From: Thermoproteota archaeon
GTDB lineage: Archaea; Thermoproteota; Nitrososphaeria; Nitrososphaerales; UBA57
Reading direction: 5' to 3'
Assembly (NCBI GenBank): GCA_036422215.1
Contig: JAYZAG010000008.1
Location: 2,842-66,841, forward strand
Length of the DNA: 64,000 nucleotides
The position numbers and the translations under genes are program-made. Every line of letters begins with the position of its first letter. The first letter of the stretch is position 1. This document shows, piece by piece, positions 24,217 to 40,148 of this stretch. The notes under the pieces were generated by a model that saw nothing but the letters and a program-made list of their open reading frames with translations, was not told where the DNA came from and did not search any database.

Positions 24217-24615
24217 ATGTACTTGGTCAATATTCTAATTTCTGATTCTCAGTTTCTAATATTTCTAAAGAATTTTATCACTAACCTTAATCGTGAGTTT
24301 GATGAGTCTTCTCTAATTGTTGTTGAAGGTAAAAATGATTTAGCTGCACTTCAACTTCTTGGATTCAAAGGCAAAGCATTCATGGTCTCCAATGGTAAAA
24401 GAATATTAGATCTTGCAGATCAGGTTGAATTTTATAAAAAAATAGTCCTTTTGTTTGATTATGATAATCGAGGCAGAGAACTAACACATCAATCAATCAA
24501 ATTATTGGAACGTAGTATAAACGTTGACATATATTATAGAAAACAACTGTCTAAGCACTCTAAGGGCCGTATTAGATATATTGAACAATTGTCTATTTTT
24601 CGAAATGTTTTTTAG
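24217..24615 (+). CDS. small Toprim-domain protein
   Basis: IVVEGKNDLAAL (Toprim Glu) and LLFDYDNRGRE (DxD-like acidic motif). Confidence 0.55.
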   Translation: MYLVNILISDSQFLIFLKNFITNLNREFDESSLIVVEGKNDLAALQLLGFKGKAFMVSNGKRILDLADQVEFYKKIVLLFDYDNRGRELTHQSIKLLERSINVDIYYRKQLSKHSKGRIRYIEQLSIFRNVF

Positions 24616-24689
24616 TACTAGTTTAAATGCAATGTAATCCGATGAAAACATTTTTATTCCTCTTTTTGAAATAATTTACGCGATAGCCG

Positions 24690-25025
24690 TTGAATTTCTG
24701 CCCTAAATGTGACTCCAAATTAATTATTGATAAAGAAGTGACTGACAATAAACCAAAATTGAAACTAGTATGCTATGTCTGCGATAATTCATTATCTCAG
24801 GGCTCCGTAAAAATCAAAGAAAAAATATCTGAAGGTAAACCATCTATTAAAATTCTTGATAAAACATCAAAACAACTTCAAAGTTTGCCCACTACCTCAG
24901 CTTCATGTCATAAATGTGATGGAAATACAGCCTATTTCTGGGAACAGCAAACTGCCGATTTAGAGCAAGCTTCCACTCAATTCTTCAGATGTACAAAATG
25001 CAATCATACTTGGAGATCAAATTAA
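24690..25025 (+). CDS. tfs: transcription factor S / RpoM-like protein (two Zn-ribbons)
   Basis: N-terminal ribbon CPKC...CYVC and C-terminal ribbon CHKC...QQTADLEQASTQFFRCTKCNHTW. TTG start. Confidence 0.75.
   Translation: MNFCPKCDSKLIIDKEVTDNKPKLKLVCYVCDNSLSQGSVKIKEKISEGKPSIKILDKTSKQLQSLPTTSASCHKCDGNTAYFWEQQTADLEQASTQFFRCTKCNHTWRSN
24693..24806 (+). repeat. copy 1 of a dispersed Zn-ribbon-coding module (TFS N-terminal ribbon)
   Basis: Hand alignment to the complement of 39289-39402 gives 87 of 114 nt identical. Exact runs include TCCAAATTAATTATTGAT and AATAAACCAAAAT. There are 22 of 38 identical residues. Confidence 0.7.
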
Positions 25026-25104
25026 GATTTTTCTCTAAATCTTTATACTTAATTTGAAATTTAAAGAAATTTATATATTATAAAAAACAGAAGAAAACTT
25101 GTTT

Positions 25105-25467
25105 ATGGTAGCAACTGAATTTGTCGTTGTGGTATTTTTGGCAGGATTCGGATTAGCAGCAGGTCTACCTACTGTTTTAATTCCTTTGTTCTTTGCACCT
25201 AAGCGCCGTAATCCAATTAAAGCCCAAACCTTTGAATCAGGACAAGTTCCACAAGGAGAATCACGAATTCATTTAATTATGCAATATTATGGTTATTTAA
25301 TTATGTTTGTTTGTTTTGATGTCACTGTGATGTTTTTGTTAACTTGGGGTGTTACTTTTTCCCAACTTGGATTTACTAGTATTTTACCTATAACTGCATT
25401 TGTTGTTGCAATCATTATTCCAATGGCTTATGCATTAAAAATGGCGGTGCGACCTGAACTATGGTAG
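25105..25467 (+). CDS. nuoA: NADH-quinone oxidoreductase subunit A
   Basis: Three-TM protein, first gene of the nuo string, with FESGQ motif. Confidence 0.85.
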   Translation: MVATEFVVVVFLAGFGLAAGLPTVLIPLFFAPKRRNPIKAQTFESGQVPQGESRIHLIMQYYGYLIMFVCFDVTVMFLLTWGVTFSQLGFTSILPITAFVVAIIIPMAYALKMAVRPELW

Positions 25468-38893: not shown

Positions 38894-38960
38894 GATATAT
38901 GTCTCATATACCTTTTTTTGTCTTTATAAGAAGTACTGCAATTCTCAATTATAGTTTAAA

Positions 38961-39075
38961 TACCGGCACCACTGCTTCACGAGACCTCTCGGACCTCACT
39001 AACACAGTAGCGTGACAAGGCTTAACTTCTGGGTTCAGATGGGACCAGGTGTGCCCTTGCCCTATGGCCGGCTGT
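38961..39075 (-). rRNA. rrf: 5S ribosomal RNA
   Basis: The reverse complement reads GCCGGCCATAGGGCAAGGGCACACCTGGTCCCATCTGAACCCAGAAGTTAAGCCTTGTCACGC...GTGGTGCCGGT. It shows helix I closure GCCGGC/GCCGGT and the conserved GAACCC.GAAGTTAAGC segment. Ends are good to about 5 nt. Confidence 0.85.
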
Positions 39076-39210: not shown

Positions 39211-39939
39211 TTAAATTGCATTAAATTTATGTTTGGATACAAAATAATTATCTTTGAGATAAAATCTCCATTGTTTTTTAGTTGCTAACATGCTTTTGGA
39301 TAACGAATTATTGCAAATACGGCATAATATTTTCGATTTTGGTTTATTTTCAACCATTTTTTCATCAATAATTAATTTGGAATTGCATTTTGGGCAGAAA
39401 TCTGATATTCCAATTCTTGGAGATGTTGATATCTTTTCTATTTCTGATTTTCCATTTGCAATATATAGTTCTCCTTTTTTGGTCAGATCTTTTCCATTTA
39501 ATTTCTTATCAATTATCAGAGCCTGTGTAAGTTTTCCTGGACCACTTGTTAGTTCTGTTTCCTTTATGACTTTTCTATTTATTTTCATCTGTTCTATTCC
39601 AATTATTGGTTCTACTGCTCGTACAAGTACTGCCCCTGCATCTTCTTCCTGCTCTTTTGCTACTATGTTGAACATGAAATACATTCCATATGAAAGATAA
39701 ACATATGAGACTCCATTTTTCCCAAACATATTCTTGTTTCTTTTTGTTCTGTGTTTCCATGCATGACTAGCTCTGTCCTTTATTCCTGATGTATATGCTT
39801 CTACTTCAACAATTTGACTTAACATATGGCCATTATTTACATCACGGACAATAATTTTTCCAAGTAATTCTTTCGCTACTTTGATTGTATTTCTGTTGTA
39901 AAATTCTCTCTCAAGTGGGCTTGGATCTTTGAATGACAT
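39211..39939 (-). CDS. mpg: 3-methyladenine DNA glycosylase (Mpg/AAG family) with an inserted Zn-ribbon
   Basis: EVEAYTSGIKDRASHAW..T.RN..MFG..G..YVYLSYGMYFMFN, GPGKLTQAL, SPRIGIS ... WRFYLKDNYFVS. A 38-aa CPKC...CRIC insert lies between RIGIS and WRF. Confidence 0.85.
   Translation of the reverse strand: MSFKDPSPLEREFYNRNTIKVAKELLGKIIVRDVNNGHMLSQIVEVEAYTSGIKDRASHAWKHRTKRNKNMFGKNGVSYVYLSYGMYFMFNIVAKEQEEDAGAVLVRAVEPIIGIEQMKINRKVIKETELTSGPGKLTQALIIDKKLNGKDLTKKGELYIANGKSEIEKISTSPRIGISDFCPKCNSKLIIDEKMVENKPKSKILCRICNNSLSKSMLATKKQWRFYLKDNYFVSKHKFNAI
39289..39402 (-). repeat. copy 2 of the dispersed Zn-ribbon-coding module (inside mpg)
   Basis: Encodes DFCPKCNSKLIIDEKMVENKPKSKILCRICNNSLSKSM. See the alignment to 24693-24806. 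Confidence 0.7.
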
Positions 39940-40010: not shown

Positions 40011-40148
40011 GGGGACGTAGCCTAGCTCGGTTATGGCGTCGGGCTCCAGAAGCTCTGGCTTTAGACCTTTTGGTAACTGACTAACGGATGATGTAGTTTT
40101 GGAGCTGCCGTGACCCGGAGATCGTGGGTTCAAATCCTGCCGTCCCCA
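40011..40148 (+). tRNA. tRNA-Trp (anticodon CCA) with a 63-nt intron at the canonical 37/38 position (about 40050-40112)
   Basis: Acceptor GGGGACG/CGTCCCC+A, anticodon stem TCGGG/CCCGG flanking CTCCAG[intron]A, T arm GTGGG-TTCAAAT-CCTGC. The mature length is 75 nt. Confidence 0.88.

What the first reader, a model, noticed from the sequence alone, without database searches (positions are those of the whole stretch)
39289..39402. A TFS-type Zn-ribbon module is inserted into a 3-methyladenine DNA glycosylase gene
Mpg/AAG-family proteins normally run ...SPRIGIS, then a few residues, then (P)WRF.... Here 38 residues (DFCPKCNSKLIIDEKMVENKPKSKILCRICNNSLSKSM) lie between RIGIS and KKQWRFYLKDNYFVS. 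This insert aligns without gaps to the N-terminal ribbon of the TFS gene at 24693-24806 (NFCPKCDSKLIIDKEVTDNKPKLKLVCYVCDNSLSQGS). By my hand count, 22 of 38 residues and 87 of 114 nt are identical, including an exact 18-nt run. That is far more than generic Zn-ribbon similarity and implies an intragenomic duplication and insertion. The N-terminal ribbon of TFS/Rpb9-type proteins is the part that docks on RNA polymerase. The inference is therefore a glycosylase tethered to RNAP (transcription-coupled base excision), or alternatively just an added DNA clamp.
Basis: partly seen in the sequence, partly recalled or inferred. Interest (0 to 1): 0.7.

Follow-up and report, generated by a model that had tools for sequence, protein, structure and literature searches.

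The report
TFS zinc ribbon copied into Mpg
In a narrow group of uncultured marine ammonia-oxidising archaea, a 38-residue zinc-binding module was copied from the start of the nearby TFS transcription-factor gene into a DNA-contacting loop of a DNA-repair glycosylase; this domain-shuffling event is real and datable, but what the added module does is untested.

Summary
The Mpg gene (39211-39939, minus strand, 242 aa) carries a clean 38-codon insert (39289-39402) between RIGIS and xAxKKQWRF. The insert matches TFS codons 2-39 (24693-24806) without gaps: 87/114 nt, 22/38 aa, an 18-nt exact run. Within the window blastn gives E=4e-24 and finds no other copy.

Only one 90%-identity cluster of Mpg proteins carries the insert (21 members, more than 18 contigs from several projects). 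A fully syntenic sister lineage (74% identical) has the empty site. So do the other 119 listed relatives and 150 family-wide representatives. Synonymous divergence between insert and TFS (0.40-0.48) is about equal to that between this lineage and the sister. All four Cys and the hydrophobic strands are kept, and the Mpg catalytic residues are intact.

The intragenomic-duplication reading is therefore strongly supported. The RNA polymerase tether idea is not tested. The insertion point aligns with human AAG G265/H266, and H266 holds the phosphate of the flipped nucleotide, so the ribbon sits at the DNA-binding face.

My estimates:
- extra DNA-side contact, about 0.4
- tolerated passenger, about 0.3
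- RNAP docking, about 0.2

This is a new variant of a known enzyme, of moderate interest.

The parts
39211..39939 (-). Mpg / AAG-family 3-methyladenine DNA glycosylase gene, 242 aa, carrying the insert
   Evidence: ORF listed. Pfam PF02245 E=1e-57 and TIGR00567 187 bits. The AF2 model (pTM 0.81) matches human AAG 3qi5 by Foldseek at E=1e-19. The equivalents of the catalytic and intercalating residues are conserved: E47, Y49, H59, Y81, Y84, N91, R107.
39289..39402 (-). 114-nt in-frame insert encoding a Cys4 zinc ribbon (DFCPKCNSKLIIDEKMVENKPKSKILCRICNNSLSKSM, C-x2-C-x20-C-x2-C), residues 180-217 of Mpg
   Evidence: Ungapped identity to the TFS ribbon of 87/114 nt and 22/38 aa. blastn E=3.6e-24. 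Absent from the syntenic sister ortholog.
39403..39417 (-). Upstream anchor of the insert, codons for RIGIS (residues 175-179). I178 aligns with human AAG V264, so S179 falls opposite G265.
   Evidence: phmmer alignment to PDB chain 7xfh_K places query residues 9-178 on chain residues 86-264. R175, G177 (invariant) and I176, I178 (nearly invariant) are conserved in A3.
39244..39288 (-). Downstream anchor, LATKKQWRFYLKDNY (residues 218-232). This is the last conserved beta-strand of the Mpg fold, and its first residue falls opposite human H266.
   Evidence: W224 and F226 are invariant and R225 nearly invariant in A3. AF2 predicts a strand at 225-228 with high pLDDT. The H266-phosphate contact is described in PMC10281986.
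24690..25025 (+). Donor gene: a two-ribbon TFS/RpoM-family protein of 111 aa with a TTG start
   Evidence: ORF listed. PF01096 C-terminal ribbon E=1.8e-10; TIGR01384 scores 54 bits, below its 64.75 cutoff. Full-length alignment to RPC10/Rpb9, and of the C-terminal ribbon to T. celer TFS 1qyp. Sits in a conserved Toprim-TFS-nuoA context.
24693..24806 (+). Donor segment: TFS codons 2-39, the N-terminal Cys4 ribbon (NFCPKCDSKLIIDKEVTDNKPKLKLVCYVCDNSLSQGS)
   Evidence: Homology begins one nucleotide after the TTG start codon and runs through codon 38 of the gene (GGC); the last codon of the segment is not homologous.

Best explanation
ORIGIN (shown). In the ancestor of a narrow marine Nitrosopumilales-type clade, about 111 nt was copied from the TFS gene 14.4 kb away on the opposite strand. 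The copied piece runs from the second nucleotide of TFS codon 2 through codon 38, which is exactly the N-terminal Cys4 zinc-ribbon domain. It was inserted in frame, with about 3 nt of non-homologous filler, into the loop joining the last two conserved strands of the Mpg glycosylase (RIGIS | xAxKxxWRF). Since then the copy has diverged from the donor about as much as this lineage has from its insert-free sister lineage. It has kept all four Cys and the hydrophobic strand residues, and the glycosylase has kept its catalytic residues and remains under purifying selection.

FUNCTION (inferred). The ribbon folds as a small zinc module that bulges out of that loop. In human AAG the residue at the aligned position, H266, holds the phosphate of the flipped-out nucleotide. 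The module therefore sits on the DNA-binding face next to the lesion strand. I think it most likely works as an added, mildly basic DNA-backbone contact or clamp that alters lesion-strand binding or residence time. This would be analogous to the Cys4 zinc finger of Fpg/Nei glycosylases. I consider docking on RNA polymerase less likely.
For: Origin:
- Ungapped identity of 87/114 nt (94/114 for haplotype D), blastn E=3.6e-24, and only two copies in the window.
- The syntenic sister ortholog has an empty site with the same FtsX-Mpg-DUF1512-polyprenyl synthase-nuo neighbourhood.
- Only one 90% cluster among the listed relatives has the insert. None of the 150 best representatives out of 7487 family hits has a ribbon.
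- dS between insert and TFS is 0.40-0.48, against 0.33-0.46 between the genomes of this lineage and the sister.
- A metagenome scan for the ribbon motif finds it only in TFS and Mpg genes, and no viral copies were found.

Fold kept:
- The four Cys, P4, L10-I12 and positions 25-26 are conserved or conservatively replaced in all five haplotypes.
- Insert dN/dS is 0.38 (A vs D), similar to the parental TFS ribbon at 0.35-0.73.
- AF2 keeps the AAG core (pTM 0.81; strand 225-228 confident) and models hairpin-like strands in the insert.

Mpg still functional: dN/dS of the Mpg body within the insert-bearing clade is 0.24-0.34, and the catalytic residues are conserved.

DNA-face location:
- I178 aligns with human V264, so S179 falls opposite G265 and the insert lies just before the position of H266. 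H136 and H266 coordinate the phosphate of the flipped AP site (PMC10281986).
- By direct count on the sequences, the net charge of the insert haplotypes is +1 to +4, against 0 to +2 for the TFS ribbons. The changes common to all insert haplotypes include D31N and a new Lys36.
Against: - No DNA-binding or structural data exist for this protein.
- AF2 confidence in the insert is only 54-74 pLDDT (below 50 at residues 198-201). The tools return no coordinates, so the orientation of the ribbon relative to the DNA groove is unknown.
- The parental domain has no known DNA-binding role; its known role is docking on RNA polymerase.
- The charge shift is small, and haplotype D is only +1.
- Within the insert, substitutions among haplotypes run 10 nonsynonymous to 4 synonymous. 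This is not significantly different from neutrality (binomial p about 0.2, calculated by hand from the counts).
- The insert's dN is 2.6 times that of the Mpg body for the same genome pair.
- The residue aligned with H266 is variable in archaeal orthologs. That specific phosphate contact is therefore not conserved.
Confidence: 0.4

Rival explanations
1. Tolerated passenger. The ribbon was fixed by chance or hitchhiking in a permissive surface loop and has no selected function of its own. It is kept in frame because the essential C-terminal WRF strand lies downstream. It is kept folded only because an unfolded 38-residue loop at the DNA face would be harmful.
For: - Distribution is very narrow: one 90% cluster.
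- The same loop tolerates length variation elsewhere. P0261 has a Cys-free insert of about 20 aa at the same place, and human AAG has 3 extra residues.
- The insert's dN is 2.6 times that of the Mpg body (0.090 vs 0.034, A vs D). Between the very close haplotypes A and B the insert has 4 nonsynonymous and 0 synonymous changes, against 4 and 3 in the 615-nt body.
- Neutrality within the insert cannot be rejected (10 nonsynonymous to 4 synonymous changes).
Against: - All four Cys and the hydrophobic strand residues are intact in every haplotype after dS of about 0.4. I estimate roughly a 10% chance of this for the Cys codons alone under neutrality.
- Changes common to all insert haplotypes at hydrophobic strand positions are conservative (V16M, L25I, V26L).
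- The constraint is similar to that on the functional parental ribbon.
- A 38-residue insertion next to a phosphate-contacting position is unlikely to be functionally silent.
- As general background knowledge, these are streamlined marine genomes with very large populations, where useless insertions are expected to be purged.
Confidence: 0.3
2. RNA polymerase tether. [quoted passage not shown] This would place the glycosylase at the downstream-DNA entry of transcribing polymerase, giving transcription-coupled base excision. Its binding would be mutually exclusive with TFS.
For: - The donor domain is the RNAP anchor of TFS/Rpb9/RPC10-type proteins. [quoted passage not shown]
- The donor protein aligns over its full length with RPC10/Rpb9.
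- At the moment of insertion the ribbon was identical to the cell's own TFS anchor.
- The jaw-lobe site lies at the downstream DNA entry (my own knowledge of RNAP architecture). A DNA-face location of the ribbon is therefore not incompatible with docking.
- There is a eukaryotic precedent for an AAG-transcription link: AAG associates with elongating RNAPII through ELP1 (PMC6884549).
Against: - Only the ribbon was copied. In TFS4 the linker forms two beta-addition strands with the jaw and the C-terminal ribbon binds the funnel, so the ribbon alone is probably a weak anchor.
- Both ends of the ribbon are now tied into the Mpg body, which may block the edges it uses.
- All insert haplotypes share 8 amino-acid changes relative to TFS. 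These include L23S, at a position that is Leu in all TFS orthologs examined, and the TFS4 ribbon-RNAP interface is described as hydrophobic.
- No interaction data exist, and no RNAP subunit lies in the window to model a complex.
Confidence: 0.2
3. Chance or convergent similarity of two AT-rich Cys4 ribbons, or a chimeric assembly.
For: The genome is AT-rich (32.8% GC) and CxxC ribbons share generic motifs. The insert's Pfam hits are weak and spread over many ribbon families.
Against: blastn E=3.6e-24 and tblastn E=2.8e-13 within the window. The TFS gene's own C-terminal ribbon and other CxxC ORFs show no comparable match. Identity at third codon positions is 29/38. The insert is present on 18 or more independent contigs from different projects and assemblers.
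Confidence: 0.01

Closest known systems
Canonical Mpg / AAG (alkyladenine DNA glycosylase; Pfam PF02245, TIGR00567)
   Same: The full catalytic domain, the predicted fold (Foldseek to human AAG 3qi5, E=1e-19) and the equivalents of all key residues: E125, Y127, H136, Y159, Y162, N169 and R182.
   Different: It carries a 38-residue Cys4 zinc ribbon inside the loop between the RIGIS strand and the WRF strand. No other listed family member has this. Other long Mpg proteins are terminal fusions (ThiS-like, UDG or tandem Mpg), not internal ribbons.
N-terminal zinc ribbon of TFS / Rpb9 / RPC10 / A12.2 (Pfam PF02150)
   Same: It is directly homologous, being a copy of this genome's own TFS ribbon. 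The spacing is C-x2-C-x20-C-x2-C, with 58-71% amino-acid and 76-82% nucleotide identity.
   Different: It is internal to an unrelated enzyme and lacks the linker and the C-terminal catalytic ribbon. It scores below the Pfam threshold (18.5 bits against 25.2). It has eight changes relative to TFS common to all insert haplotypes, including L23S. RNAP binding is untested.
Human AAG-ELP1-RNA polymerase II association (PMC6884549)
   Same: An AAG-family glycosylase is functionally linked to transcription.
   Different: In human cells the link runs through a partner protein (ELP1), not through a built-in RNAP-anchor domain. No such interaction has been shown here.
Cys4 zinc finger of Fpg/Nei (MutM/EndoVIII) glycosylases (my own knowledge, not tested here)
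   Same: A small Cys4 beta-hairpin zinc module within a glycosylase, next to the lesion-strand backbone. This is the analogy for the DNA-clamp reading.
   Different: The host fold is unrelated (H2TH), the finger is C-terminal and not inserted in a loop, it is ancient and family-wide, and it has no relation to TFS.
Zinc-ribbon domains of E. coli topoisomerase I that bind RNA polymerase (my own knowledge, not tested here)
   Same: A DNA enzyme uses Zn-ribbon modules to associate with RNAP. This is an analogy for the tether reading.
   Different: A bacterial system with C-terminal repeats of different origin that bind the beta' subunit.

Membership tests
Mpg/AAG DNA glycosylase (PF02245 / TIGR00567) | Profile HMM match above the curated cutoff | tested here: met
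   PF02245 scores 194.9 bits against a cutoff of 27. TIGR00567 scores 187.2 bits against 116.35. The species-level equivalog models (NF002001 and others) are below their cutoffs.
Mpg/AAG DNA glycosylase (PF02245 / TIGR00567) | Catalytic Glu, the intercalating Tyr hairpin and the base-pocket residues (human E125, Y127, H136, Y159, Y162, N169, R182) | tested here: met
   E47, Y49, H59, Y81, Y84, N91 and R107 align with them and are invariant or nearly invariant in 59 homologs.
Mpg/AAG DNA glycosylase (PF02245 / TIGR00567) | AAG fold | tested here: met
   AF2 pTM 0.81. Foldseek finds human AAG chains at E=1e-19 and TM 0.85 normalised to the target.
Mpg/AAG DNA glycosylase (PF02245 / TIGR00567) | Alkylpurine or hypoxanthine excision activity | not testable with these tools
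   Needs an enzyme assay.
TFS/Rpb9-type N-terminal zinc ribbon (PF02150) | Cys4 ribbon, CxxC-(n)-CxxC | tested here: met
   C182-x2-C185-x20-C206-x2-C209, conserved in all five haplotypes.
TFS/Rpb9-type N-terminal zinc ribbon (PF02150) | Pfam profile match above the gathering score | tested here: not met
   18.5 bits for the insert alone and 13 bits within the whole protein, against a cutoff of 25.2. The donor's own N-terminal ribbon also fails to reach PF02150.
TFS/Rpb9-type N-terminal zinc ribbon (PF02150) | Demonstrable homology to the N-terminal ribbon of a two-ribbon TFS/RpoM protein | tested here: met
   tblastn E=2.8e-13 and blastn E=3.6e-24 to window TFS codons 2-39. The donor aligns over its full length with RPC10/Rpb9.
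TFS/Rpb9-type N-terminal zinc ribbon (PF02150) | Context: N-terminal position, followed by a linker and a C-terminal TFIIS-type ribbon | tested here: not met
   The insert is internal to Mpg. Homology ends at codon 37 of the segment, and no linker or C-terminal ribbon was copied.
TFS/Rpb9-type N-terminal zinc ribbon (PF02150) | Binds RNAP between the jaw and the lobe | not testable with these tools
   There is no RNAP subunit in the window and no complex-prediction tool. The feature is known for TFS4 (PMC8448823).
Transcription factor S (donor gene 24690-25025; TIGR01384) | Equivalog HMM above its cutoff, and the acidic D-E hairpin in the C-terminal ribbon | tested here: not met
   TIGR01384 scores 54.2 bits against a cutoff of 64.75. 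The hairpin reads E92-Q93 where T. celer TFS has D-E. The C-terminal ribbon does pass PF01096 (40.9 bits against 21). The gene is therefore a TFS/RpoM-family member, but its cleavage activity is uncertain.
Transcription-coupled repair factor | Physical association with RNAP and preferential repair of the transcribed strand | not testable with these tools
   Needs pull-down and strand-specific repair assays.

The most novel reading that the evidence does not exclude
The glycosylase has captured the cell's own TFS anchor and uses it to dock at the jaw-lobe site of archaeal RNA polymerase, at the downstream-DNA entry. It would then scan or excise alkylated bases ahead of transcription while excluding TFS. 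This would be a built-in, one-polypeptide device for transcription-coupled base excision repair, and the first direct link between a glycosylase and RNAP in archaea.
Probability: 0.2. Interest if true: 0.8.

Novelty: new variant of a known kind. Interest (0 to 1): 0.5.

Why it matters
This is an unusually clean, recent and datable case of domain shuffling inside a prokaryotic genome. Several pieces are all in hand:
- donor and recipient, 14 kb apart in one genome;
- an insert-free syntenic sister lineage;
- exact junctions;
- several diverging haplotypes.

It shows how a complete folding unit can be grafted into a loop at the DNA-binding face of an enzyme without killing it. The graft is the RNA polymerase anchor of a transcription factor, now sitting beside the DNA-binding face of a base-excision enzyme. 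This poses a sharp, cheaply testable question: does the module bind DNA, bind RNAP, or do nothing? The archaeal transcription-repair connection is still poorly defined, so a positive RNAP result would be important. A DNA-clamp result would be a natural experiment in tuning glycosylase-DNA affinity. The finding is limited by its narrow distribution (one uncultured marine lineage) and by the lack of any functional data.

Tried and rejected
- Scan of GTDB species representatives with the Mpg protein.
- First TFS protein search. It returned only 6 clusters, and public gene calls truncate the N-terminus (95, 85 or 102 aa). The N-terminal ribbons had to be recovered from the DNA.
- NJ tree of the 114-nt ribbons. 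The insert clade (81% bootstrap) falls outside a clade of all three TFS ribbons (85%). With a very distant outgroup and a faster-evolving insert, this cannot decide whether the copy predates or follows the split from the sister lineage. I rely instead on the dS comparison and on the improbability of a precise deletion.
- Search for microhomology or target-site duplication at the junctions. None was convincing.
- Attempt to deepen the AF2 alignment over the insert by adding TFS rows. MAFFT misaligned them, so no second prediction was run.
- Protein-database search with the ribbon alone. The query was first rejected as too short; the 42-column alignment then yielded one candidate and no hit. This is uninformative and not evidence of absence.
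- Scan of viral contigs for the ribbon motif: zero matches, so there is no sign of a mobile-element carrier.
- Literature search for Mpg together with zinc ribbon: nothing relevant.
- Chance similarity and assembly chimera were considered and rejected.
Full report
WHAT IS THERE

The window has 32.8% GC. Its closest named relatives are marine Thaumarchaeota/Nitrosopelagicus metagenome-assembled genomes (MAGs). The Mpg and TFS proteins are recorded as MEE6245810.1 and MEE6245794.1 on a 67.7-kb contig of a 'Thermoproteota archaeon' MAG.

A 242-aa ORF on the minus strand (39211-39939) is a DNA-3-methyladenine/alkyladenine glycosylase. Pfam Pur_DNA_glyco scores E=1e-57 and TIGR00567 scores 187 bits. 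The Pfam match stops at residue 180, at profile position 167 of 181.

A 111-aa ORF on the plus strand (24690-25025) has a TTG start and is a two-ribbon TFS/RpoM-family protein. Its C-terminal ribbon passes PF01096, and it aligns over its full length with RPC10/Rpb9 and with Thermococcus celer TFS.

CHECK OF THE OBSERVATION

The reverse complement of 39289-39402 aligns without gaps to 24693-24806 with 87/114 identical nucleotides, 22/38 identical residues and an 18-nt exact run.

Within the window, blastn of the insert finds only the TFS segment (E=3.6e-24) and tblastn gives E=2.8e-13. The TFS gene's own C-terminal ribbon and the other CxxC ORFs give nothing comparable. Chance or generic AT-rich ribbon similarity is excluded.

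The insert is not an assembly artefact. The 242-aa form occurs on at least 18 contigs from independent projects.

LINEAGE SPECIFICITY AND THE EMPTY SITE

- Of 2319 Mpg relatives found, 120 were listed, and only one 90%-identity cluster (P0001, 21 members) has the extra 38 residues. All the others are about 190-207 aa.
- The next relative (P0002/P0135) is 74% identical over the aligned residues and reads RIGIS|VAIKQQWRF with no insert. It lies in the same FtsX - Mpg - DUF1512 - 75-aa ORF - polyprenyl synthase - nuo operon neighbourhood.
- A search that read every one of 1.84 billion representative proteins gave 7487 family hits. None of the best 150 has a ribbon.
- The long hits are terminal fusions: ThiS-like, UDG or tandem Mpg.
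- One distant member (P0261) has a Cys-free insert of about 20 residues at the same loop, and human AAG has three extra residues there. The loop is therefore permissive.
- A DNA scan of the metagenome collection for the motif F-C-P-K-C-[N/D]-S-K-L-I-I found only TFS genes and this Mpg. Viral contigs gave nothing.

ORIGIN AND AGE

Public gene calls truncate TFS at the N-terminus because of the TTG start, so I recovered the ribbons from the DNA of four lineages:
- A: the window.
- B: L007/L032, on one contig.
- D: L021/L027.
- Sister lineage without the insert: L017/L024.

Identity in the 114-nt ribbon segment:

| Pair | Identical nt of 114 |
|---|---|
| insert A vs TFS A | 87 |
| insert D vs TFS A | 94 |
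| insert D vs sister TFS | 93 |
| insert A vs insert D | 102 |
| TFS A vs TFS D | 106 |
| TFS A vs sister TFS | 98 |

A more distant TFS (L001) matches at only 56-64 of 114 positions. The donor was therefore the TFS of this very clade.

Nei-Gojobori estimates give dS between insert and TFS of 0.40-0.48. The genome-wide dS between lineage A and the sister is 0.33-0.46 (Mpg body 0.38, rest of TFS 0.46). Between A and D it is 0.07-0.24. The copy therefore predates the A/D split and is about as old as the split from the sister lineage.

Because every outgroup has the empty state and a precise 114-nt deletion is improbable, I place the insertion just after that split. An NJ tree of 114 sites places the insert clade outside all three TFS ribbons. 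I regard this as unresolved, given the faster-evolving insert and the very distant outgroup.

Homology begins one nucleotide after the TFS start codon and runs through the GGC codon, position 37 of the 38-codon segment. The last codon (ATG against TCC) is not homologous. No microhomology or target duplication is visible. The copied piece is thus exactly the N-terminal ribbon domain, without the linker or the C-terminal ribbon.

STATE OF THE COPY

Five protein haplotypes of the insert exist. All of them keep:
- the four Cys (C-x2-C-x20-C-x2-C);
- P4;
- the L10-I11-I12 strand;
- the I25-L26 strand.

Variation is concentrated in the inter-hairpin loop (positions 13-20), in the two residues between the second pair of Cys, and at position 37.

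Relative to the inferred ancestral TFS ribbon, all insert haplotypes share eight replacements: N1D, V16M, L23S, L25I, V26L, D31N, x36K and S38M. Most are conservative. L23S hits a position that is Leu in all TFS orthologs examined.

Insert dN/dS is 0.38 for A vs D, comparable to the parental ribbon (0.35-0.73) and higher than the Mpg body (0.24). The insert's dN is 2.6 times that of the body. Between the near-identical haplotypes A and B the insert has 4 nonsynonymous and 0 synonymous changes. With 10 nonsynonymous and 4 synonymous changes in total, neutrality cannot be rejected (hand calculation, p about 0.2).

The Mpg body stays under purifying selection within the insert-bearing clade (omega 0.24-0.34). 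All catalytic and pocket residues are conserved. The enzyme is therefore very probably active.

STRUCTURE

AF2 with 59 homologs gives pTM 0.81. It predicts a confident AAG core, including the strand after the insert (residues 225-228). The insert itself scores pLDDT 54-74, falling below 50 in the loop at 198-201, with short hairpin-like strands. Foldseek matches human AAG-DNA complexes at E=1e-19. The tools return no coordinates, so the orientation of the ribbon could not be examined.

Sequence alignment to full-length human AAG places I178 on V264, so S179 falls opposite G265. The insert therefore lies immediately before the position of H266. In the AAG-nucleosome cryo-EM study, H136 and H266 coordinate the phosphate of the flipped AP site (PMC10281986). 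The ribbon therefore emerges at the DNA-binding face, next to the lesion strand.

WHAT IT PROBABLY DOES

It is established that the N-terminal ribbon of TFS-type proteins anchors them on RNA polymerase. Three things weigh against it:
- Only the ribbon was copied.
- Both its ends are now tied into Mpg.
- A conserved Leu became Ser.

No interaction could be tested.

The location at the DNA face supports an added DNA-backbone contact. So does the slightly more basic composition: net charge +1 to +4 against 0 to +2 for the TFS ribbons, counted on the sequences. This would be analogous to the Cys4 finger of Fpg/Nei enzymes (my own knowledge).

A third reading is a tolerated passenger that is merely kept folded. 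It fits the narrow distribution and the elevated dN.

I commit to the following estimates:

| Reading | Probability |
|---|---|
| Accessory contact at the DNA face | about 0.4 |
| Tolerated passenger | about 0.3 |
| RNAP tether | about 0.2 |
| Anything else | about 0.1 |

The origin of the insert as an intragenomic copy of the TFS ribbon I hold at above 0.95.

COMPARISON WITH WHAT IS KNOWN, AND NOVELTY

The host is a member of the Mpg/AAG family; all testable defining features are met. The insert is homologous to, but no longer a canonical member of, the TFS/Rpb9 N-terminal ribbon family. It scores below the Pfam threshold, sits in the wrong context, and its RNAP binding is untested.

I found no paper describing an Mpg with a zinc ribbon. 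The sources annotate the protein simply as DNA-3-methyladenine glycosylase. Human AAG is linked to elongating RNAPII through ELP1 (PMC6884549), which is a functional precedent but a different mechanism.

I rate the finding a new variant of a known kind, with interest 0.5. It is a real, clean and testable domain-capture event in a narrow uncultured lineage, and its function is still open.

Noticed in passing
window 24690-24740; also L024, L027, L030-L032 and L001 9974-10000: The TFS gene starts with TTG, two codons after an in-frame TAG. Public gene calls (NCBI MEE6245794.1, JGI, ENA, Tara) start further downstream and give products of 95, 85 or 102 aa that lack the first CxxC of the N-terminal ribbon. 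The annotated proteins therefore look like one-and-a-half-ribbon TFS, and protein-level searches miss the similarity to the Mpg insert.
   Followed up: yes
window 24963-24968 (TFS residues E92-Q93): The acidic hairpin of the TFS C-terminal ribbon reads ...QTADLEQAST..., with E-Q where T. celer TFS (1qyp) and RPC10/Rpb9-C11 have the catalytic D-E. The sister and more distant Nitrosopumilales-type orthologs also have LEQ, and the Bathyarchaeia relatives have LEE. TIGR01384 is below its cutoff (54 bits against 64.75). Whether this protein is an active cleavage factor or a TFS4-like variant is open.
   Followed up: partly
window 38958-39075 (-) and 40011-40148 (+): Mpg is flanked by stable-RNA genes. 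A 5S rRNA gene (Rfam RF00001, 73.8 bits) lies 135 nt downstream on the same strand. A 138-nt tRNA match (RF00005, 48.7 bits), presumably intron-containing and missed by ARAGORN, lies 71 nt upstream and is divergently oriented.
   Followed up: partly
window 39289-39402 compared with L007 3435-3548 (haplotypes A vs B): Between two nearly identical strains (Mpg body dS 0.024) the 114-nt insert has 4 nonsynonymous and 0 synonymous differences (D13G, K15E, and R28Y, which takes 2 nt). The 615-nt body has 4 nonsynonymous and 3 synonymous. Position 28, between the second pair of Cys, is R, Y or H among the haplotypes. This suggests local relaxation or diversifying selection, but the numbers are too small to tell.
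   Followed up: partly
protein P0261 (284 aa; distant Mpg representative): It carries a Cys-free, Arg/Gly-rich insertion of about 20 residues at exactly the same loop (RIGLG-AGRAARHRSGGRSGWALTQEQALTV-PWRF). The loop is thus a recurrent site of length variation in the family.
   Followed up: no
proteins P0163, P0174, P0298 (ThiS-like N-terminal domain) and P0176 (UDG-superfamily N-terminal domain): Other Mpg family members are fused at the N-terminus to a ThiS/ubiquitin-like domain or to a uracil-DNA-glycosylase-superfamily domain. P0178 (475 aa) has two stretches matching the Mpg profile.
   Followed up: no
window 24217-25467 and L001, L024, L027: The Toprim-domain gene - TFS - nuoA/nuoB... 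arrangement is conserved across all the lineages examined. The position of DUF1512 and its neighbours differs in the more distant lineage L001, which points to a rearrangement between TFS and Mpg in that lineage.
   Followed up: no
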